Of a DNA stretch of 64,000 nucleotides, positions 6,329 to 56,149 are shown piece by piece. The notes beneath the pieces are model-generated. The model saw nothing but the letters and a program-made list of their open reading frames with translations, did not search any database and was not told the origin of the DNA. The stretch comes from Actinomycetota bacterium (GTDB lineage Bacteria > Margulisbacteria > Marinamargulisbacteria > GCA-2716485 > GCA-002719695): the NCBI GenBank assembly GCA_002697535.1, contig NZWE01000012.1, forward strand, positions 8,713 to 72,712. The letters run 5' to 3'. The stretch's first letter is position 1, and each line of letters opens with the position of its first letter. The position numbers were made by a program, and so were the translations under genes.

Positions 6329-7834
6329 TTATTGTGGAGGAGGCTGTGTTGAAACAGGTATTCCATAGGCCGCTACGCCATATGTAAATTTCTGAGCAGT
6401 TAAAGATGCTGTAGTATATATCTCATCTTGGGTGTTGGTGCCTGCATTGGCCATATTACAAAACTTTATATATCTACTTATATTTTTATCAGTATCCGCA
6501 TTAAAAGCTTCTACAAACATAAATGTAAACGATGCATTTTGATTATAATTTGATTGAAAATCAAATATACCGGTATTCGATACACCTTTTCTGGTAGCCC
6601 CAATATCATCATCAGGGTTTGCTAAGCAGTCCGGGTTAGTATTTGTGCCATCGTGAACTTCCATCCAATACACACCATGCGCGTTATGCGTTTGTAAGGC
6701 TGTTAAATAGCCAATATAGGATACCATAAACCCTTTTACACTATCATCAGCAGCAGCAGTAGCAGCAGCAGCATCACAGCTTGAATCATCACTATCACCA
6801 ATAAGATATGTTCCCCCATTATCCCCTCTACATTTATCCATATTTACATCTAAATATACTTCTAATGCGGGTTGGTCTTTGGGTACGTTGTTAGTTGTCT
6901 CAGTGGATCCTGTTCTAAATTGAACAAACCCTACTAAACCAAATATTTTACCTACAACAACATCACCTTTTATAAACATTCCTTTACCTGCACCATCATC
7001 TGGACAATGATCCATTGCACCAGGGTCTTCCAATGCTGTCTCTTGATTGATACATACTTGTCCTCCACTGCCAGGAAGATCCCTTACTAGCACATGATCC
7101 GTTAAATACGTATTTCCGGGTGGATAATACAATGTATTAGTTGTATCATCTTTTTTAGTTTGACGTATGGCATTGATACTAAATGGTTGTGGTACAGTTG
7201 GTTCTAACGACCAGTCAACTGACTCAAAGGCGCCCATCGTTAATAGATTTTTCTCTGAATCATTATAAATCCAGACAGATTCTCCATAACGTGAATTTCC
7301 TACTTGTAAATTAGAATACGCTTGAGGAATTTTCTTAACGGTCTGGTTAGCTAGAGTTTCTACTGTTATATCTCCCAAAGCTCCTCCCTTTGCTACCTGT
7401 AATAAGCAGTTAGTAGGGCAATCATCTGCTTCTACTTTCTTCTTGGTAAACCCTTGTATACTTCCTACTATAGATGGTGGACTTAAAAATTCACCTATAT
7501 ACTTACTTACCATAATTCTTAATTTTCTAGCATCTTCATCTGGGTTTACATTAATTCCTATATTCATCGTTCCAGGTACAGGATTTGTTGCAAAGCTAGT
7601 ATAATATTGACCGTATGTATACTCACACTCTACAGGTTCTATTTTTAATGTTTTTTTGTAGCATACGTTTTTTGGAATGGGAGATGTCATACCAGCTTCT
7701 GTATTAACATCATCTTGAATATAATGTCCTGTATCAAAAACCACTTCATTTGGTCTTACTGTATTAAAACCATAAGTTGATATACCGAAAATGATTATAA
7801 ATATTGCTATAAAAATTTTTGTTAATAACCGCAT
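6329..7834 (-). CDS. secreted protein of unknown function (501 aa)
   Basis: N-terminal signal-like segment MRLLTKIFIAIFIIIFGISTYG. G/D/T/N-rich with many Cys and no motif I recognise. Starts 17 nt after the upstream 953-aa gene. Confidence 0.7.
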   Translation of the reverse strand: MRLLTKIFIAIFIIIFGISTYGFNTVRPNEVVFDTGHYIQDDVNTEAGMTSPIPKNVCYKKTLKIEPVECEYTYGQYYTSFATNPVPGTMNIGINVNPDEDARKLRIMVSKYIGEFLSPPSIVGSIQGFTKKKVEADDCPTNCLLQVAKGGALGDITVETLANQTVKKIPQAYSNLQVGNSRYGESVWIYNDSEKNLLTMGAFESVDWSLEPTVPQPFSINAIRQTKKDDTTNTLYYPPGNTYLTDHVLVRDLPGSGGQVCINQETALEDPGAMDHCPDDGAGKGMFIKGDVVVGKIFGLVGFVQFRTGSTETTNNVPKDQPALEVYLDVNMDKCRGDNGGTYLIGDSDDSSCDAAAATAAADDSVKGFMVSYIGYLTALQTHNAHGVYWMEVHDGTNTNPDCLANPDDDIGATRKGVSNTGIFDFQSNYNQNASFTFMFVEAFNADTDKNISRYIKFCNMANAGTNTQDEIYTTASLTAQKFTYGVAAYGIPVSTQPPPQ

Positions 7835-7851
7835 TTTTTCTCCCTTAATGA

Positions 7852-10713
7852 TTATATTGGATCAGGAAACCCTAAGACCCATATAGCACCGCTATGATAT
7901 AATTCTGGATATGATGATGGTGCATAACTAACAACGTCTTTCGTGTTATCAAAATCTGTTCCTATATCTGCATGTGATGTCCAAACTGATATACTTAGTC
8001 GATAGGTCGTGTCGTTAGTACAATCACCACCTAGGCATTGGTCACTGGCAATCGCTTTAACATTTTCTAACATTGCTATATTTGTAAACGTGTAAGTTTT
8101 ATTTGCGCCCGATGGCGACTCAAAATCTCCTGAAAATAATGATTTATCTGTATTACAAGTTGCAGAGCCACTTCCACATTGCTTTCCATTTAAGTTTGCT
8201 GTATCGGAAGCTCTAACTAGATCAATACTTAAATAAGTGCCTTCTTTTTTTTCATACATATTTGTTGATAAACTTGTTAAAATCACAAATTTATATCCTA
8301 AATTTGGTAATCCATCTGTATAGATGTCATTCCCATGAATATGTAATTCCATTGTTTTTTGGGGGCCATCACCATTAGCCAAACAGTCACCTTCTGTTTT
8401 TGCATGACTCACGCTTGGTTTTACAAATACATTTGGTTGGGTTAAAGCACTCCCAACTGCAGCGCATTTTAAATAAAACATTTTTCCTATATCGCCTTCA
8501 TAGACACCTGTAAAGGCAACTTCTGCTGTTGGATTTGATAAAAAGTAACCACTTGCTTGTTTATCATCCATAATTAGCTGAGCGTATGATTCAGGGGTAG
8601 TCCCCATTTCCTCAAAATTTCTTTTTGGTATATTTACAAATTTTATTTCACTATTTGTTCCTACATCAATACCACTTGCCAACCTTAATGAGGTATTTCC
8701 TGTTATGCTAATATTCAGTGTTGTTCCATAGGTAGCAATTCCGTAATCGACAATTGAAGTTGTTTCATCAATTTTTACTTCTGCGTCATCTACGTCATAA
8801 TATTGGCCATAAGGTCCGCGCATGAAATCCTCTGTTGCATCAGGGTTGTTCGAATCTTTATAAGGTACAATAAAACTTAAGCGTGCAAATTCACCCATAT
8901 CAGGCCAAAAGTCACTGTCAGCATCGTTGTATCTTTGAATATTAAATAAATTTTCTGTTTTTTCATCTAGGATCTTTAGTACACTAATTTCATATTTTAC
9001 ATCAACATCTATAACAGGGGCTTTTAAAGTTATTGGACTTACGCCATCTGTAAAAATTATAAAATCGCCAGAAGCTGATATACCCGCTAATAATGTATCT
9101 GATGATCCTCCAGAATCTTCAGGTCTAAATATCATGGCATTTTTTTGAAATAGAGGCTTATCAGCAGCTACAAACTCAAGATCGCTATCATCAAACGACT
9201 CAAATTCAGGGGGTGGTACTGGACTAGGAACATTGGGAGATAACTCTCCTCCAGGTAATCCTAAAATAACAATTTGATTTTGTTCACCTTTCGCCTTGAA
9301 ATAAGTCTGCGAGTAAGAATGTTCATTACTTAATTTAAGACACGCTAGCCATGATGATTCTATACTTGATGAAGCTGACTCGTTTCCGTCAATCTTCTGA
9401 TTATCAGCTTCTAACTTTATTACAAGTTGTGTTGTAAGACTAGCCGAAGTTTGGGAAAAGGAACCCTCCATTACTCTTTCTGTTTGCTCTCTTATCTCGC
9501 TTTCCTTATAGTAGACAGCTTCACCATAATCATTATAATATTTTAGTGCTATCCAGGTAGTAACTTTTCCTACTCTGCCAGAACTATTAGGATTTTCTCC
9601 ACTTACAATCCCCATTATCAAAAAATTGTGAGGAACATAACTTATGGTAAATGGCTTACATCCAGGTATGACATCATAACCTGGAGGGTTACCCATATTA
9701 GTAGGGACAACTGTCTCATGAATTTCATTTGCTTCTTGGTACAAAACACCAAAATCTCCTTGAGATGTTAAACTTCCTAATACTTTAAATTTTCCAATAA
9801 CAGTCAGATCTCTCATAACGCGATCCGTATTTACTGAAATTTTTGCACTTGTACTATTCTCATCAGTAAATTCAGGAAATAATGTCATAATTGGCAAATT
9901 GGTTTCCTCATCATTACCAATATATATAGGGTTATTCCCCAATCCCATATGAACAGGCTCTTTTGAAATAACAGCTACATTCTCTGGCATTTCTGTAATT
10001 TTATATCTATTTATTTCAAAACCATTTATCTCACTTCTTGGACCAATCCCCATAAACTCTCTTGCTGAATCACCAACTAATATATAGGCCTCATCAGGGG
10101 AACTTTCTGCTGCATATAAACTTGATTTAGGATCACTATCAAAATGTAAAAAACCACTCAAACCTACAGTATCTTGCCAAAAATTATCTCTATGATCTAT
10201 TACATTGTTTCCTGTTGCAGGGTCATTGAAGGAATTATAATATTCCGTTATTTCTATTGGCAAATCTGCTTCTTCTTCCGTGCCATTTATATCTGGTATT
10301 TCAAACTTTTCCCAACCACCACCAGTTACATCAACAAAACTCTTATTAACTAAAAACCGGGGACATCCATAAAAAAATTCGTTTACGTCGAAATCGCTGG
10401 TACACATTAAATCTTCATCTCCATATGTCATTGCCGTTACTTCATATAATAAAGCTGTGTCCGTTTCACCTTCTATAATAGGCCGAACAAAATTAATACT
10501 TTTTGCTCTATAAGTTTGCCCTATTTCGTTATAGGGTAATGCTTGAATCATAGGTAAGTACTGTTCCGAACTATTTATAGTTGTTGTAGCTTCAAAACCA
10601 CCACCATCACCAAAAATTAATCGATATTCGTCTATAGTTGTGTAACCAGCATAAATACTACTAACACATAGCATACTGATAATATACATTAACAAAAAAA
10701 TTAGTTTCTTCAT
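7852..10713 (-). CDS. large secreted protein of unknown function (953 aa)
   Basis: Signal peptide MKKLIFLLMYIISMLCVSSIYA. Long uninterrupted ORF in an AT-rich genome, with no recognisable domain. Shares a short DCLANxD motif with the downstream 501-aa protein. Confidence 0.75.
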   Translation of the reverse strand: MKKLIFLLMYIISMLCVSSIYAGYTTIDEYRLIFGDGGGFEATTTINSSEQYLPMIQALPYNEIGQTYRAKSINFVRPIIEGETDTALLYEVTAMTYGDEDLMCTSDFDVNEFFYGCPRFLVNKSFVDVTGGGWEKFEIPDINGTEEEADLPIEITEYYNSFNDPATGNNVIDHRDNFWQDTVGLSGFLHFDSDPKSSLYAAESSPDEAYILVGDSAREFMGIGPRSEINGFEINRYKITEMPENVAVISKEPVHMGLGNNPIYIGNDEETNLPIMTLFPEFTDENSTSAKISVNTDRVMRDLTVIGKFKVLGSLTSQGDFGVLYQEANEIHETVVPTNMGNPPGYDVIPGCKPFTISYVPHNFLIMGIVSGENPNSSGRVGKVTTWIALKYYNDYGEAVYYKESEIREQTERVMEGSFSQTSASLTTQLVIKLEADNQKIDGNESASSSIESSWLACLKLSNEHSYSQTYFKAKGEQNQIVILGLPGGELSPNVPSPVPPPEFESFDDSDLEFVAADKPLFQKNAMIFRPEDSGGSSDTLLAGISASGDFIIFTDGVSPITLKAPVIDVDVKYEISVLKILDEKTENLFNIQRYNDADSDFWPDMGEFARLSFIVPYKDSNNPDATEDFMRGPYGQYYDVDDAEVKIDETTSIVDYGIATYGTTLNISITGNTSLRLASGIDVGTNSEIKFVNIPKRNFEEMGTTPESYAQLIMDDKQASGYFLSNPTAEVAFTGVYEGDIGKMFYLKCAAVGSALTQPNVFVKPSVSHAKTEGDCLANGDGPQKTMELHIHGNDIYTDGLPNLGYKFVILTSLSTNMYEKKEGTYLSIDLVRASDTANLNGKQCGSGSATCNTDKSLFSGDFESPSGANKTYTFTNIAMLENVKAIASDQCLGGDCTNDTTYRLSISVWTSHADIGTDFDNTKDVVSYAPSSYPELYHSGAIWVLGFPDPI

Positions 10714-13889: not shown

Positions 13890-14927
13890 TTGTTAATCTT
13901 ATTTAATATGAGTGAATCACTTTTTTTAAATGCATGTTATAAAAGAAATAAAGACCGCCCTCCTATTTGGTTTATGAGACAAGCGGGTCGCTATTTACCT
14001 GAATACAGAAAACTACGATCAAAATATTCTTTTCTTGAAATGGTACATACTCCGGATCTTGCTTGTGAGGTAACACTTCAGCCGATTACACGTTTTGGAT
14101 TTGATGCGGCTATTTTATATTCTGATATATTAGTTATTACAGAAGTATTTAATTTATATTTTGATTTTATAGAAGGAAAAGGGCCTCAGTTACGTGATTA
14201 TCATCTAAGTATTACAGAGATTGCTAAAACAGTTTCAAATGAACCTGTAATTGAGACATTATCTTATGTTTATGATGCGATTTCGTTACTTAAATCGTCA
14301 TTGGGGAACAGACCTTTGATTGGCTTTTCAGGTTCACCTTTTACGGTAGCGTGTTACTTAATTGAAAAGCAGAGTTCAAAAACCTTTTCTTCGGTTAAAT
14401 CATTGATTGAGTCTGATCCTAGTTTATTTCATAGTATATTACAGGCATTAACTGAGGTAACGATTACGCATTTAAGTAATCAAATTAAAGCGGGTGTTAA
14501 TGCTGTTCAAATTTTTGATACGTGGGGATCAATGCTAACAGATGATGATTATCATACATTTTCGTTCGATTATATTTATCAGATCGTTCAAGCTGTTCAA
14601 TCGTTTAATGTTCCGATCATTATTTATTCAAAAGATACAGCAAATAAACTACCGTCATTAATTAAGCTTAATACGAATGTTATTAGCGTTGACTGGAATA
14701 GTTCTTTAGATGTTTTACAGCAACAGTATCCAATGATGGCATGGCAAGGCAATTTAAATCCTCATACGTTATTGGAATCACTTCCTGCTGCACTTGAGGA
14801 AACCAAGATGATTTGTGAAACGATGAAGAATTCCCCAGGTTTCATTTTTAATCTTGGCCATGGTATTTTACCTAAAACACCGTTAGAACATGTTGATGCT
14901 ATTGTTAATTATGTTAAACAACTTTAA
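13890..14927 (+). CDS. hemE: uroporphyrinogen decarboxylase
   Basis: PIWFMRQAGRYLPEY signature near the N-terminus. 345 aa. The ATG at 13908 (MSESLF) is the more likely start. Confidence 0.9.
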   Translation: MLILFNMSESLFLNACYKRNKDRPPIWFMRQAGRYLPEYRKLRSKYSFLEMVHTPDLACEVTLQPITRFGFDAAILYSDILVITEVFNLYFDFIEGKGPQLRDYHLSITEIAKTVSNEPVIETLSYVYDAISLLKSSLGNRPLIGFSGSPFTVACYLIEKQSSKTFSSVKSLIESDPSLFHSILQALTEVTITHLSNQIKAGVNAVQIFDTWGSMLTDDDYHTFSFDYIYQIVQAVQSFNVPIIIYSKDTANKLPSLIKLNTNVISVDWNSSLDVLQQQYPMMAWQGNLNPHTLLESLPAALEETKMICETMKNSPGFIFNLGHGILPKTPLEHVDAIVNYVKQL

Positions 14928-15111
14928 TTATTCCCACCTACAATCCTGTAAGATAAACTCCCTATCTTTTTACCTTTAATTTTATTTATTTCTAATATTT
15001 ATCTGATTTTTTTATTTTTTATTTCAGATAAACTTGTTTTGTGATGTTATTTTTTTTAATAGTTAATTTAACATTAACTTTATCGACAAAATAGTCAAAA
15101 AGGATTGATAT

Positions 15112-15453
15112 ATGATAACTAATCATGCAGAAAACACTTTAAGTTCACAAAGTATAGCACAAACTCAACGAGGAATAGCGCCACATGCACCTTATATGCC
15201 AAAGAGAAGTTTTAAAGTAAATGATCTTGCTAGAAAAGTATTTATAGATAAAGAGTATTTACAACAAATTAATCACATTCGTTTCAATGAATCGACAGCT
15301 TCTAGAGAGAGATCTAGACAATCATCTAGAGTAATACCAGCCGTCGAAATACCAGCTCAAACTCAACAATATGCAATACCGGCCACACCTTTATTTGTAC
15401 ACTCCATGCAAAACAGCGATATATATGCTAGCAGAATCAGAGATAATGGTTAG
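15112..15453 (+). CDS. orphan hypothetical protein (113 aa)
   Basis: ATG preceded by a weak AAGGA. Low-complexity S/Q/R-rich sequence with no recognisable motif. Confidence 0.4.
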   Translation: MITNHAENTLSSQSIAQTQRGIAPHAPYMPKRSFKVNDLARKVFIDKEYLQQINHIRFNESTASRERSRQSSRVIPAVEIPAQTQQYAIPATPLFVHSMQNSDIYASRIRDNG

Positions 15454-15565
15454 GAATTAAATTATTATTTTTCAAAAATGTTTTAAGAAAACAGTTTTAA
15501 ATTTTACTATAGTATAGCCTGATAAAAATCTAAAAAAAATATAAGGTCAGAAAAACGAGGCCTAA

Positions 15566-15817
15566 CACAAAATAAACGCCAGCGAAGCGAAGCCTTACAC
15601 AATAAACGCCAGCGAAGCGCTGCGTTACAAAATAAACGCCAGCGAAGCGCTGCGTCACACAAAATAAACGCCAGCGAAGCGCTGCGTTACAAAATAAACG
15701 CCAGCGAAGCGCTGCGTTACACAAAATAAACACTAGCGAAGCGCTGCGTCACACAAAATAAACGCCAGCGAAGCGCTGCGTCACACAAAATAAACGCCAG
15801 CGAAGCGCTGCGTTCGC
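15566..15817. repeat. 8-copy tandem direct repeat, 30/32-bp period, GC-rich core
   Basis: AATAAAC anchors at 15571, 15601, 15631, 15663, 15693, 15725, 15757 and 15789. Consensus is AAAATAAACGCCAGCGAAGCGCTGCGTYACAC. The first copy is degenerate (GCGAAGCGAAGCC) and copy 6 has CACT for CGCC. Confidence 0.95.
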
Positions 15818-15831
15818 CAAAACCAATCTCA

Positions 15832-15961
15832 GGGACTGTCGTAAAATAGTGCTAGGTGGTCATATTTTGGAGTGCAGACTCCCGCGAGCCCGTAGCCTAG
15901 GCGAAGGGTGTGGAGTTAAGCTCCAAAATATGGCCAGATAGCGCTATTTTACGACAGTCCC
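15832..15961. repeat. 130-nt imperfect inverted repeat (long hairpin), possible structured RNA, terminator or MITE-like element
   Basis: Left arm 15832-15882 pairs with right arm 15912-15961, starting with an 18-bp perfect block GGGACTGTCGTAAAATAG. The 29-nt GC-rich apex is CGCGAGCCCGTAGCCTAGGCGAAGGGTGT. The element ends 1 nt from the ferredoxin stop codon. Confidence 0.9.
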
Positions 15962-15962
15962 G

Positions 15963-16217
15963 TTAGTATGTCATTTTTACAGTGCCCGAATTAATCACAC
16001 ACTGACATCCCAACCGTTTGTTGCCTTCCATACCAAGATCTTCTTCTTCCTGATTGATTTCAGATAAATTAGCCATACCATCCAAAACTTCAACTTCACA
16101 CGTACCGCAAACACCGTTACTACATCCAATTGGAACACCAGCTTCTTCAATCGTGTCAGTGATATTTTCACCATCATCAACCTCTATTTCTTCGTCATTT
16201 AAAATTAATTTAGCCAT
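15963..16217 (-). CDS. 2Fe-2S ferredoxin
   Basis: 84-aa acidic protein with the plant-type ligand pattern C-x4-C-x2-C...C (GCSNGVCGTCEVEV ... LGCQC). Confidence 0.8.
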   Translation of the reverse strand: MAKLILNDEEIEVDDGENITDTIEEAGVPIGCSNGVCGTCEVEVLDGMANLSEINQEEEDLGMEGNKRLGCQCVINSGTVKMTY

Positions 16218-16278
16218 TATTTTTCTCCACTATATAGGTTATACCTCAAAAACAGTTTAAAGAAACACTTTTTTATGG

Positions 16279-17388
16279 TCAAGCCATAACCTGTGATTTA
16301 GATTGATTTGTTGCTTGAAACGTTTTCATAAAGTTAATTAATGCTTCGACACCTTCTTTTGGGTGAGCATTATAAATTGAGGCACGAAGCCCACCAACTG
16401 AACGGTGACCTTTTAAGCCACTCAACCCTTGATTTTCAGCTTGTTGAAAAAACTCTTTTTCTTTTTCTTCAGTATCATTTAAACGAAATACAACATTCAT
16501 AAGAGAACGATCTTTTTTGTCTACGGGGCAATAATAATAATCACTAGAATCGATAGCATCGTAGAGCATACTTGCTTTTTTGTCGTTATTTTTTTCGATA
16601 GCATCTAAACCGCCCTGTTGTTTAATCCAGTCTATAACAGAAGAGATAATATAAATCCCAAAAGTGGGGATAGTATTGTATAAGGAATTACTATCAACAA
16701 ACGAATTATAATTTAACATTGATGGCAAATTATTAGGGGAACGATCTAATAGATCTTTACGAATTATTACGATAGTAACGCCAGCAGGTCCGATATTTTT
16801 TTGTGCGCCTGCAAAAATAATTCCAAACTTTGACACATCCAGTTTTCTGGACAAGATATCAGAAGACATATCAGCTACTAAAGGAACTGTGTTCGTGTTA
16901 GGAAATTGCTTAAACTGAGTTCCGAAAATGGTATTATTGGAACACATGTAAAGAAAAGAGGCATTTTGGTCAATTTGATCATCATTGATAGTGGGGATAT
17001 AAGAGAAGTTTTTATCTTCTGATGATGCAACAACATCACATTCTGATTGCTTTTTAATTTCTTTTAAAGCTTTTTTACTCCAAATCCCTGTATTAATTAA
17101 GGATACTTTTTTTCCTTCTTGGGCGATATTAAGGGGTACCATAGAAAACTGAAGGGATGCTCCGCCTTGCAAAAATAAAATATCGTGAGTATCAGGTACA
17201 GATAAAAGGTCTTTAATACCTGATTTAGCATTATCTAGAACCGCTTCAAAGATCTTACTTCGGTGCGACATTTCCATAATAGACATACCTTGATCTTGGA
17301 AATTTAATAGTTCTTGTTGAGCTTTTTCTAGTACATGAAGAGGTAGAGTTGCTGGCCCAGCGCTAAAATTAAAAATACGTTTTGACAT
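16279..17388 (-). CDS. serC: phosphoserine aminotransferase
   Basis: N-terminal FNFSAGPATLP, class-V aminotransferase length (369 aa) and SerC-like sequence throughout. Confidence 0.9.
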   Translation of the reverse strand: MSKRIFNFSAGPATLPLHVLEKAQQELLNFQDQGMSIMEMSHRSKIFEAVLDNAKSGIKDLLSVPDTHDILFLQGGASLQFSMVPLNIAQEGKKVSLINTGIWSKKALKEIKKQSECDVVASSEDKNFSYIPTINDDQIDQNASFLYMCSNNTIFGTQFKQFPNTNTVPLVADMSSDILSRKLDVSKFGIIFAGAQKNIGPAGVTIVIIRKDLLDRSPNNLPSMLNYNSFVDSNSLYNTIPTFGIYIISSVIDWIKQQGGLDAIEKNNDKKASMLYDAIDSSDYYYCPVDKKDRSLMNVVFRLNDTEEKEKEFFQQAENQGLSGLKGHRSVGGLRASIYNAHPKEGVEALINFMKTFQATNQSKSQVMA

Positions 17389-56008: not shown

Positions 56009-56149
56009 GCATAGTCGTTACAACCCAACAATTTGATATGCTGTGATGGCAATCTAATTATTATATCGATTTTATGCTACCGCTTTCATATTAAGATAAA
56101 TCATTATCTTAGTTCCATCACATTTAAAATTAAAATAAGGAGATTATAT

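What the first reader, a model, noticed from the sequence alone, without database searches (positions are those of the whole stretch)
15566..15817. GC-rich 8-copy tandem array (30/32-bp units) carrying the GCGAAGC mini-hairpin motif
There are eight head-to-tail copies of AAAATAAACGCCAGCGAAGCGCTGCGTYACAC. Spacings between anchors are 30, 30, 32, 30, 32, 32 and 32 bp. The 18-nt core is far more GC-rich than the surrounding genome. Each unit contains the palindrome CAGCG-AAG-CGCTG and the heptamer GCGAAGC, which is known to fold into an unusually stable DNA mini-hairpin. There are no unique spacers, so this is not a CRISPR array. The mix of 30- and 32-bp periods changes the reading frame between units, so it is not coding. 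No rep, par or recombinase gene is nearby. It could be an iteron- or centromere-like protein-binding array, a replication or recombination hotspot, or a repeat-containing RNA transcribed from the 113-aa ORF upstream into the long hairpin downstream.
Basis: partly seen in the sequence, partly recalled or inferred. Interest (0 to 1): 0.65.

Follow-up and report, generated by a model that had tools for sequence, protein, structure and literature searches.

The report
Variable tandem array of terminator-like hairpins
The eight-copy GC-rich repeat is real, but it is a copy-number-variable minisatellite of small terminator-like hairpins found at one place in an uncultured marine bacterium, next to one copy of a dispersed 130-base palindromic repeat, and nothing points to a replication or partition site.

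Summary
In detail: 15565-15814 carries 8 head-to-tail units of 30/32 bp, each with GCGAAGC.

- **Source.** The window comes from a marine Candidatus Marinamargulisbacteria genome, 33% G+C.
- **Position.** The array lies between the convergent genes hemE/ORF113 (+) and a 2Fe-2S ferredoxin gene, fer2 (-).
- **One locus.** Every AT-rich metagenome hit to the unit is this locus. Contig depths fit one array per genome.
- **Variable.** Assemblies of near-identical populations carry 2 to 22 units, with different unit variants. Short-read collapse may account for the lowest counts.
- **Restricted.** Relatives with fer2 77-92% identical have hemE and fer2 0-150 nt apart, with no array.
- **Not pure junk.** In a lineage with fer2 dS 0.79, the unit core and the neighbouring hairpin are still conserved.
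- **Terminator-like.** On the fer2 sense strand each unit is a GC hairpin followed by UUUAUUUUGU. RNA contigs run from fer2 into the array.
- **Dispersed hairpin.** The 130-nt hairpin has at least 5 further copies with other flanks, shows compensatory changes, and tolerates G.U only on the + strand.

Best reading: a slippage-driven minisatellite of terminator-like hairpins in the fer2 3' region. The iteron or centromere reading has no support. This is a new member of a known kind, of modest interest.

The parts
13890..14927 (+). hemE (uroporphyrinogen decarboxylase), the upstream gene of the convergent pair
   Evidence: ORF. The called gene matches PF01208 URO-D. It is conserved in all relatives.
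15112..15453 (+). ORF113, an orphan 113-aa ORF that is probably not a conserved protein gene
   Evidence: It has no Pfam family. Only two homologue clusters exist, at 89-93% identity. dN/dS against L112 is 1.2, compared with 0.04-0.10 for its neighbours. It is absent in L135, where the array follows hemE directly.
15565..15814 (+). Tandem array of 8 units of 30/32 bp. Units start at 15567, 15597, 15627, 15659, 15689, 15721, 15753 and 15785. Each unit is an A-rich linker ACA(CA)AAATA followed by the hairpin AACGCCAGCGAAGCGCTGCGTY.
   Evidence: On the - strand 13 terminator-like sites fall in it, against 1.1 +/- 1.2 in shuffles. Copy number and unit variants differ between assemblies.
15815..15831 (+). 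C/A-rich spacer CGCCAAAACCAATCTCA between the array and the long hairpin
   Evidence: Read directly from the sequence. A homologous spacer lies in L130 (AAAACCCCCAATCTCA). Similar spacers lie upstream of two other hairpin copies (loose ends).
15832..15961 (+). 130-nt imperfect palindrome, one copy of a dispersed palindromic repeat family that folds best as the + strand
   Evidence: One search gives the arms. One search gives -88.3 kcal/mol and z -10.5 on the + strand; one search gives -71.2 on the - strand. All 54 predicted pairs form on the + strand, six of them G.U. L130 is 93% identical although fer2 dS is 0.79. Other copies with different flanks and compensatory changes appear.
15963..16217 (-). 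fer2, an 84-aa 2Fe-2S ferredoxin whose stop codon lies 1 nt from the hairpin. The hairpin and the array lie in its 3' region.
   Evidence: One search gives the ORF and the PF00111 match. RNA contigs cover fer2 and run into the hairpin (X13, X16) or across it into the last array unit (X26).

Best explanation
**What it is.** The array is a single-locus, lineage-restricted minisatellite (VNTR) in a marine Marinamargulisbacteria genome. Each 30/32-bp unit is a 22-nt GC-rich quasi-palindrome, AACG-C-CAGCG AAG CGCTG-CGTT, tipped by GCGAAGC, plus an 8-10-nt A-rich linker.

**Where it sits.** On the - strand, which is the sense strand of the ferredoxin gene fer2 ending about 150 nt away, each unit is a GC hairpin followed by UUUAUUUUGU. 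That is the shape of an intrinsic terminator. The array therefore lies in the 3' region of fer2, distal to a 130-nt palindromic element.

**How it changes (inferred).** The array grows and shrinks by replication slippage or unequal exchange between units, helped by hairpin formation. The unit variants GCGAAGCG and GCGCTGCG differ by two adjacent bases that make or break the palindrome. This is the signature of quasi-palindrome template switching.

**Likely role (inferred).** It acts as a stack of redundant terminators, or an insulator, between the convergent fer2 and hemE/ORF113 genes.

**Shown:** anatomy, single locus, copy-number and sequence polymorphism, restriction to a narrow clade, conservation of the unit core, and presence in RNA-derived contigs joined to fer2.

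**Inferred:** termination, the slippage mechanism and template switching.
For: **Real and non-random.**

**Single locus.**
- The 21-mer unit scanned over JGI metagenome contigs gave 4 AT-rich hits (L123, L128, L130, L135). All four are at the hemE-fer2 locus. The other 16 hits are single chance matches in GC-rich contigs.
- In DNA runs X1, X2 and X4 only array unitigs, at 1-2.5 times the single-copy depth and with no foreign flanks, lie on the array at 80% likeness.
- The window holds no other copy.

**Polymorphism.**
- An identical 8-unit allele was assembled in three samples: the window with L001/L118, and L120.
- A 10-unit allele was assembled in two independent samples (L002, L119).
- The sister population has 6, 8, 21 and 22 units.

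**Restriction to a narrow clade.** L142, L145, L146, L147, L153, L154 and L158 (fer2 77-92% aa identity) have hemE and fer2 overlapping or 17-153 nt apart, with no array.

**Constraint.**
- In L130, four-fold sites are only 44-52% identical and fer2 dS is 0.79.
- Even so, the unit core AACGCCAGCGAAGC is identical there, and the T-rich tail is kept.

**Terminator shape.**
- 13 terminator-like sites lie on the - strand, against 1.1 expected.
- All unit variants keep a 5-9-bp stem on the - strand, at -6.4 to -9.7 kcal/mol for the common ones.

**RNA.**
- An X26 contig of depth 35 joins the fer2 coding sequence to the last unit. A separate array contig has depth 8.
- The X13 and X16 fer2 contigs end inside the hairpin.
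- No contig covers ORF113.

**Literature.** Template switching at quasi-palindromes is described in PMC7202029.
Against: - No stranded reads were available, so the direction of the RNA over the array is not shown and no 3' ends are mapped.
- In the sister population most units read GCGAAGCGAAGCGT and have lost the inner stem. That leaves weak hairpins of about -6.5 kcal/mol, which is poor for a terminator.
- The two inner-stem variants seen (TAGCG...CGCTG and CAGCG...TGCTG) are G.U on the + strand, not on the - strand.
- The neighbouring hairpin is also + strand biased.
- Copy numbers from short-read assemblies can be collapsed. The 2-unit contig L114 may be an example.
- Conservation of the unit core could reflect a function other than termination.
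Confidence: 0.5

Rival explanations
1. The array is a neutral minisatellite with no function. A hairpin-forming GC-rich motif next to a palindromic insertion expanded by slippage, is tolerated between two convergent genes, and will drift or be lost.
For: Copy number and unit composition vary freely among near-identical populations. The array is absent from all but the closest relatives, which manage with 0-150 nt between the two genes. In L112 most units have lost the palindrome.
Against: A GC-rich 14-nt core and its T/A-rich linker are unchanged in L130 and L135. Four-fold sites of the flanking genes are only 44-52% identical in L130, and the genome is 33% G+C. Neutral decay should have erased both.
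Confidence: 0.2
2. The array and the long hairpin form one non-coding RNA read on the + strand. A row of small hairpins separated by A-rich linkers would act as a multivalent binding platform or sponge, closed by a very stable 3' hairpin.
For: The long hairpin folds much better as the + strand (-88.3 against -71.2 kcal/mol). All wobble positions in the window copy, in L112 and in L130 are G.U on the + strand, and almost all pair-affecting changes in the other copies fit + strand pairing too. Two inner-stem unit variants are also G.U on the + strand. The module is conserved across saturated synonymous divergence. Array pieces occur in RNA runs X26 and X28.
Against: No promoter-like site lies on the + strand between ORF113 and the array. 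No RNA contig covers the region upstream of the array in the run that covers fer2 and hemE. RNA depth is higher on fer2 than on the array. The other hairpin copies are not seen in four RNA runs, so the family is not an abundant RNA. Copy number of 2-22 and loss of the inner stem argue against a tuned platform. Rfam gives no match.
Confidence: 0.15
3. The array is a DNA-level protein-binding array, such as an iteron, a centromere-like site or another phased binding site. The 30/32-bp period is close to three helical turns.
For: The repeats are direct and sit in helical phase (30-32 bp against 31.5). The core sequence is invariant.
Against: There is no rep, par, recombinase or other DNA-binding gene in the neighbourhood, only housekeeping or unassigned ORFs between 0 and 39 kb. 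No DnaA box lies within 14 kb. Copy number is unconstrained. The array is absent in relatives that have the same gene order.
Confidence: 0.05
4. The array is the amplified 5' module of the dispersed palindromic element. The mobile unit would be a small GCGAAGC hairpin, a C/A-rich spacer and the long hairpin, and only the small hairpin was multiplied at this insertion.
For: Another hairpin copy is preceded by GGCGGCGAAGCCACGCC and then CACCCCCACAAC. Copy C is preceded by TAAAACCCC...CAGCAA, which resembles the L130 spacer AAAACCCCCAATCTCA (loose ends; L130).
Against: Only 30 nt of each foreign flank could be read. The small hairpin of the other copy shares 11 of 17 bases with the unit and pairs in a different register. 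Copies B and D show no such motif. This explains the origin of the array, not its function, and is compatible with the best explanation.
Confidence: 0.3

Closest known systems
Intergenic bacterial VNTRs or minisatellites, such as the mycobacterial MIRU-VNTR loci (from general knowledge)
   Same: Both have head-to-tail units of tens of bp, lie between genes of transcribed regions, and vary in copy number between close strains.
   Different: MIRUs occur at about 40 loci per genome and often carry small ORFs coupled to the flanking genes. This unit occurs at one locus, has a period that is not a multiple of three, and is a hairpin followed by a U tract.
BIME-2 clusters of REP sequences in E. coli, and REPINs (PMC3116915, PMC3337134)
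   Same: Both are arrays of GC-rich palindromic units at the 3' ends of genes. Their copy number varies between strains and they are co-transcribed as hairpins.
   Different: REPs alternate in orientation, are dispersed at hundreds of loci and are tied to a RAYT transposase. Here all units are direct and confined to one locus, and no RAYT was seen in the 64 kb.
ERIC/IRU and Correia/NEMIS elements, the bacterial MITEs (PMC2229807). This comparison is for the neighbouring long hairpin.
   Same: Both are non-coding imperfect palindromes of 100-200 bp, present in several copies with different flanks, and co-transcribed with the adjacent gene into a long stem-loop. As with the 107/155-bp Correia forms, one DNA contig here carries a form that lacks the internal part.
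   Different: TA termini and target-site duplications could not be established. This element is G+C-rich (0.51) in an AT-rich genome, whereas MITEs are usually AT-rich. It comes from a different phylum and shares no sequence similarity with those elements. Its pairing tolerance is strictly one-stranded.
d(GCGAAGC) mini-hairpin DNA (PMC13037366)
   Same: The heptamer is present in every unit and is the only part of the hairpin that never varies, apart from one GCGAAGT unit.
   Different: The known natural contexts are phage ssDNA origins, ssi signals and the phage N4 promoter, always as single copies. The review notes that the RNA version is much less stable. Nothing here links the array to priming or to ssDNA replication.
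Multi-hairpin sponge RNAs such as CsrB/RsmZ and CrcZ (from general knowledge)
   Same: Both are rows of small stem-loops separated by A-rich linkers.
   Different: This array has no GGA or CA motif pattern, no promoter or terminator that defines a discrete RNA, and an unconstrained copy number. It gives no Rfam match.

Membership tests
Bacterial VNTR / minisatellite | Head-to-tail copies of a unit of about 10-100 bp | tested here: met
   There are 8.0 copies with period 32 and score 402. The register was checked by hand.
Bacterial VNTR / minisatellite | Copy number differs between closely related strains at the same locus | tested here: met
   Assemblies with identical or at least 93% identical flanking proteins carry 2, 6, 8, 10, 21 and 22 units. 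The 8- and 10-unit alleles were each assembled independently more than once. The lowest count may be an assembly collapse.
Intrinsic (Rho-independent) terminator | G+C-rich stem-loop directly followed by a U tract on the transcribed strand, downstream of a gene | tested here: met
   There are 13 sites on the - strand inside the array, against 1.1 +/- 1.2 in shuffles. The array lies 150 nt downstream of fer2 on that strand.
Intrinsic (Rho-independent) terminator | Transcript 3' ends map to the U tract | not testable with these tools
   Only unstranded assembled contigs of metatranscriptomes were available. They show fer2-linked RNA that reaches the last unit, with lower depth beyond it.
Iteron array / partition centromere | Adjacent rep or par gene | tested here: not met
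   The neighbours are the SNF2 helicase, hemE, fer2, serC, pyk, the men genes, S16 and others.
Iteron array / partition centromere | DnaA boxes or origin features beside the repeats | tested here: not met
   TTATNCACA occurs only at 1414, 40881 and 60115, which is fewer than chance expectation.
CRISPR array | Repeats separated by unique spacers, with cas genes nearby | tested here: not met
   The units abut with no spacers. No Cas family is among the scanned ORFs.
REP / BIME | The same palindromic unit dispersed at many intergenic loci | tested here: not met
   The unit is found only at this locus in the window, in the metagenome contigs and in the Logan contigs of three runs.
Bacterial MITE, ERIC or Correia type (long hairpin 15832-15961) | Non-coding element under 200 bp that forms a long stem-loop | tested here: met
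   It has 41-nt arms and folds to -88.3 kcal/mol with z -10.5.
Bacterial MITE, ERIC or Correia type (long hairpin 15832-15961) | Several copies with different flanks in one genome | tested here: met
   At least 5 further copies lie on contigs of depth 8-14 where the locus depth is 12, and of depth 2-6 where the locus depth is 2-6. That they share one genome is inferred from the matching depths.
Bacterial MITE, ERIC or Correia type (long hairpin 15832-15961) | Terminal TA and target-site duplication; precise filled and empty sites | tested here: inconclusive
   The flanks are TCA|GGGAC...GTCCC|GTT, with no evident duplication. Relatives lack the whole module, so no precise empty site is available.
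Any Rfam family | Covariance-model match | tested here: not met
   There is no match at gathering score in 64 kb. Over 14900-16300 only chance-level hits appear at E up to 10.

The most novel reading that the evidence does not exclude
The module is a functional, strand-specific structured element. The long hairpin would belong to a new family of RNA or ssDNA elements kept by selection on pairing, and the array would be an expandable set of hairpins. Its copy number would tune read-through or insulation, or protein binding, between the convergent fer2 and hemE genes. That would make it a contingency locus acting at the level of termination in a streamlined marine bacterium.
Probability: 0.12. 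Interest if true: 0.6.

Novelty: new member of a known kind. Interest (0 to 1): 0.3.

Why it matters
- **Clear negative for the exciting readings.** The array is not an origin, a centromere or a CRISPR-like array.
- **First repeat elements described for this group in the papers searched.** It documents a hypervariable minisatellite and a dispersed 130-bp palindromic repeat with compensatory changes in Marinamargulisbacteria. This is an uncultured sister group of Cyanobacteria, and none of the nine papers that mention it concerns repeat elements.
- **Strain marker.** The array could serve as a natural strain marker in ocean metagenomes, although it also breaks short-read assemblies.
- **A small test case.** It could show whether stacked weak terminators between convergent genes are selected in streamlined genomes.
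- **Otherwise ordinary.**

Tried and rejected
- **Coding repeat.** Rejected, because 32 is not a multiple of 3 and copy number varies. The 51- and 67-aa - strand ORFs in the array are by-products.
- **CRISPR.** Rejected, because there are no spacers and no cas genes.
- **Known RNA family.** No Rfam match.
- **GTDB scan for CCAGCGAAGCG twice, 28-35 bp apart.**
  - It gave 108 hits in unrelated phyla. None shares the full unit and none is from the source organism.
  - Many are coding repeats (PAKR or SEA peptides) or short arrays with 14-17-nt periods.
The apparent excess is therefore unproven.
- **Phage or viral origin.** Two scans of viral contigs with hairpin patterns found nothing, and a blastn search against phages gave only chance-level partial hits.
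- **Second hairpin copy in the window or in the related loci.** A covariance model (R1) found none in the window or in 12 related loci.
- **Hairpin-less transcript in RNA run X26 (skips 15842-15973).**
  - It is not an ancestral empty site. It removes the fer2 stop codon and the last three codons, which are conserved as KMTY* in all relatives.
  - The junction has TGTC(G/A) microhomology.
  - It is most likely a reverse-transcriptase jump across the hairpin, or a rare deletion.
- **Whole-array folding.** It is uninformative, because units can pair with their neighbours. The z-score is 0.22 on the - strand and -4.4 on the + strand.
- **Strand of the RNA.** It could not be determined, because every run is held as unstranded contigs.

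Full report
**Observation.** Tandem Repeats Finder gives 15565-15814, period 32, 8.0 copies, 89% matches. Anchors at 15581, 15611, 15641, 15673, 15703, 15735, 15767 and 15799 give the spacings 30, 30, 32, 30, 32, 32, 32. The palindrome motif occurs 8 times in the array and once elsewhere (with 2 mismatches), against 0.22 expected. Six units carry the perfect CAGCG-AAG-CGCTG. Unit 1 reads GCGAAGCGAAGCCTT and unit 6 reads ACACTAGCG. All eight contain GCGAAGC. The palindrome extends to AACG-C-CAGCG / CGCTG-CGTT, and 8-10 A-rich bases link the units. Downstream lies a 130-nt imperfect palindrome (15832-15961, 41-nt arms). It is the only long inverted repeat in the window.

**Source and neighbourhood.**
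- The same sequence is on a 74-kb Tara Oceans contig.
- The nearest ferredoxin homologues with the same gene order come from single-cell genomes named Candidatus Marinamargulisbacteria. One MAG is labelled 'Rickettsiales bacterium'.
- The gene order is SNF2 helicase (-), hemE (+), ORF113 (+), array, hairpin, then fer2 (-), serC, pyk and menD. The array therefore lies between convergent genes.
- Every scanned ORF from 0 to 39 kb either matches a housekeeping family or matches no Pfam family. The window has no tRNA, and no DnaA box lies nearby.

**Single locus.**
- A scan of the metagenome contigs with the 21-mer unit gave 20 loci. The four AT-rich ones are all this locus: hemE or ORF113 lies upstream, or the hairpin and fer2 lie downstream. 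The rest are single chance matches in GC-rich DNA.
- In three DNA runs only array unitigs lie on the array at 80% likeness. Their depth is 1-2.5 times the single-copy depth and they have no foreign flanks.

**Polymorphism and distribution.**
- The same 8-unit allele was assembled in three samples.
- A 10-unit allele with GAAG-type units was assembled in two other samples (L002, L119).
- The sister population, whose ORF113 is 93% identical, has 6, 8, 21 and 22 units, mostly GCGAAGCGAAGCGT or GCGAAGCAAAGCGT.
- Several contigs end inside the array. The 2-unit contig L114 may be a collapsed assembly.
- L135, with hemE 95.6% identical, has the array directly after hemE and no ORF113.
- L130, with serC 79% identical and fer2 dS 0.79, has the array (49-nt units with a partial internal duplication) and the hairpin in the same position.
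- Seven more distant lineages (fer2 77-92% aa identity) have hemE and fer2 overlapping or 17-153 nt apart, with neither array nor hairpin.
- The simplest history is one gain in a narrow clade.

**Constraint.** Between the window and L130, four-fold sites are only 44-52% identical. Even so, the unit core AACGCCAGCGAAGC is identical, the linker is nearly so, and the hairpin is 93% identical. A GC-rich motif would not survive this much divergence by neutrality in a 33% G+C genome. ORF113 shows the opposite pattern. Its dN/dS is 1.2, against 0.04-0.10 for its neighbours. It has no Pfam family, and its only homologues are at least 89% identical.

**What a unit looks like on each strand.**
- On the - strand, the fer2 sense strand, every unit is a GC stem followed by UUUAUUUUGU. 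The scan finds 13 terminator-like sites there, against 1.1 +/- 1.2 in shuffles, and none on the + strand.
- Nearly all unit variants keep an outer stem of at least five pairs on the - strand; the rare GAAGCCTT unit (3 of 99 units counted) does not. The common variants fold to -6.4 to -9.7 kcal/mol.
- The T-rich tail is kept in L130 and L135.
- Two rare inner-stem variants are G.U on the + strand instead.

**RNA evidence.** Every run is held as unstranded contigs, so direction is unknown.
- In X13 and X16, fer2 contigs of depth 14 and 9 end inside the hairpin. In X13, hemE has depth 3.6 and ORF113 has none.
- In X26, a contig of depth 35 runs from the fer2 coding sequence, skips 15842-15973 and continues into the last unit. 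A separate array contig has depth 8.
- The skip removes the conserved fer2 end KMTY* and has TGTC microhomology. I read it as a reverse-transcriptase jump across a very stable hairpin.
- X28 holds array pieces from a related allele.
- Together these runs show that fer2-linked RNA reaches the array.

**The long hairpin is a dispersed repeat.**
- At 80% likeness its summed depth in X1-X4 is 50-130, where the flanks have depth 12. At least five other contigs align to it with different flanks, some of them 2-5 kb long. Each has depth 8-14 there, and 2-6 in runs where the locus itself has depth 2-6.
- Differences between copies are compensatory or wobble-compatible on the + strand:
  - 15871 A>G occurs with 15922 T>C.
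  - 15839 T>C occurs with 15954 A>G.
  - CTGTCG/CGACAG becomes CCAGCG/CGCTGG.
  - GGAG/CTCC becomes AAAA/TTTT.
  - There are also several changes between U.G and C-G.
- In the window copy all 54 predicted pairs form on the + strand, six of them G.U. On the - strand 48 form. The fold energies are -88.3 and -71.2 kcal/mol.
- The element therefore appears to be selected, or propagated, as a single strand in the + orientation. None of the other copies shows up in four RNA runs.
- This fits the bacterial MITE class (ERIC, Correia; PMC2229807). Termini and target duplications could not be read.
- One other copy has its own GCGAAGC hairpin and a similar C/A-rich spacer upstream. This hints that the tandem unit derives from the 5' part of the element. 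It is a lead only.

**Interpretation.** The array is a slippage-driven minisatellite of terminator-like hairpins in the fer2 3' region, beside one copy of a dispersed palindromic element.
- The two-base GAAG/GCTG difference between unit variants makes or breaks the palindrome, as expected from quasi-palindrome template switching (PMC7202029).
- GCGAAGC is the invariant tip of the hairpin. As DNA it forms an exceptionally stable mini-hairpin (PMC13037366), which may favour slippage.
- A role as redundant terminators or an insulator between convergent genes is the most likely function. It is inferred, not shown.
- The rivals are pure neutrality, a + strand ncRNA and a DNA-binding array. They are ranked in the report sections.

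Noticed in passing
window 15842-15973 (RNA run X26): An RNA-derived contig of depth 35 joins 15841 to 15974. It skips the whole hairpin together with the fer2 stop codon and the last three codons. The junction has TGTC(G/A) microhomology. It is probably a reverse-transcriptase jump, but a rare deletion variant is not excluded.
   Followed up: partly
window 15849-15955 (DNA run X10): A DNA contig from a related lineage replaces the apical 107 nt of the hairpin with 25 nt (TGCTCAGATAGCGCTATTTTTTGGT) and keeps only the basal stem. This recalls the long and short forms of Correia elements.
   Followed up: no
window 15112-15453: ORF113 is an orphan with dN/dS 1.2 against its 93%-identical homologue. 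It has no Pfam family, no RNA contig in X13, and is absent from a relative whose hemE is 95.6% identical (L135). It may not encode a protein.
   Followed up: partly
L130 (reverse strand, about 520-700 of the reverse complement): In this relative the fer2 start and its upstream region are followed by a second, truncated copy of the fer2 5' end with the same upstream sequence. This is a tandem partial duplication.
   Followed up: no
L004-L111 (GTDB genome scan): Short tandem arrays containing CCAGCGAAGCG recur in many unrelated phyla, sometimes at several loci of one genome: archaeon SI039_bin30 (L005, L030, L056), Prevotellaceae RUG378 (L031, L059, L061, L082) and 'bacterium 6_bin.52' (L045, L070, L077, L079). 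Some are coding (PAKR or SEA peptide repeats). Others have non-coding periods of 14-17 nt. L083 is a tandem array of terminator-like units. No control scan could be run, so the excess is unproven.
   Followed up: partly
window 56033-62451: A 1490-aa ORF and a 641-aa ORF carry several internal tandem repeats with periods of 6-30 (58480-59788, 61149-61312). The AT skew turns strongly positive here (+0.27), unlike the rest of the window.
   Followed up: no
window 6329-10713: Two large ORFs (500 and 952 aa) beside the SNF2 helicase gene have no Pfam family at E up to 0.001.
   Followed up: no
whole window: Public names conflict. The ORF113 homologue comes from a MAG labelled 'Rickettsiales bacterium'. 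The closest syntenic genomes are named Candidatus Marinamargulisbacteria.
   Followed up: partly
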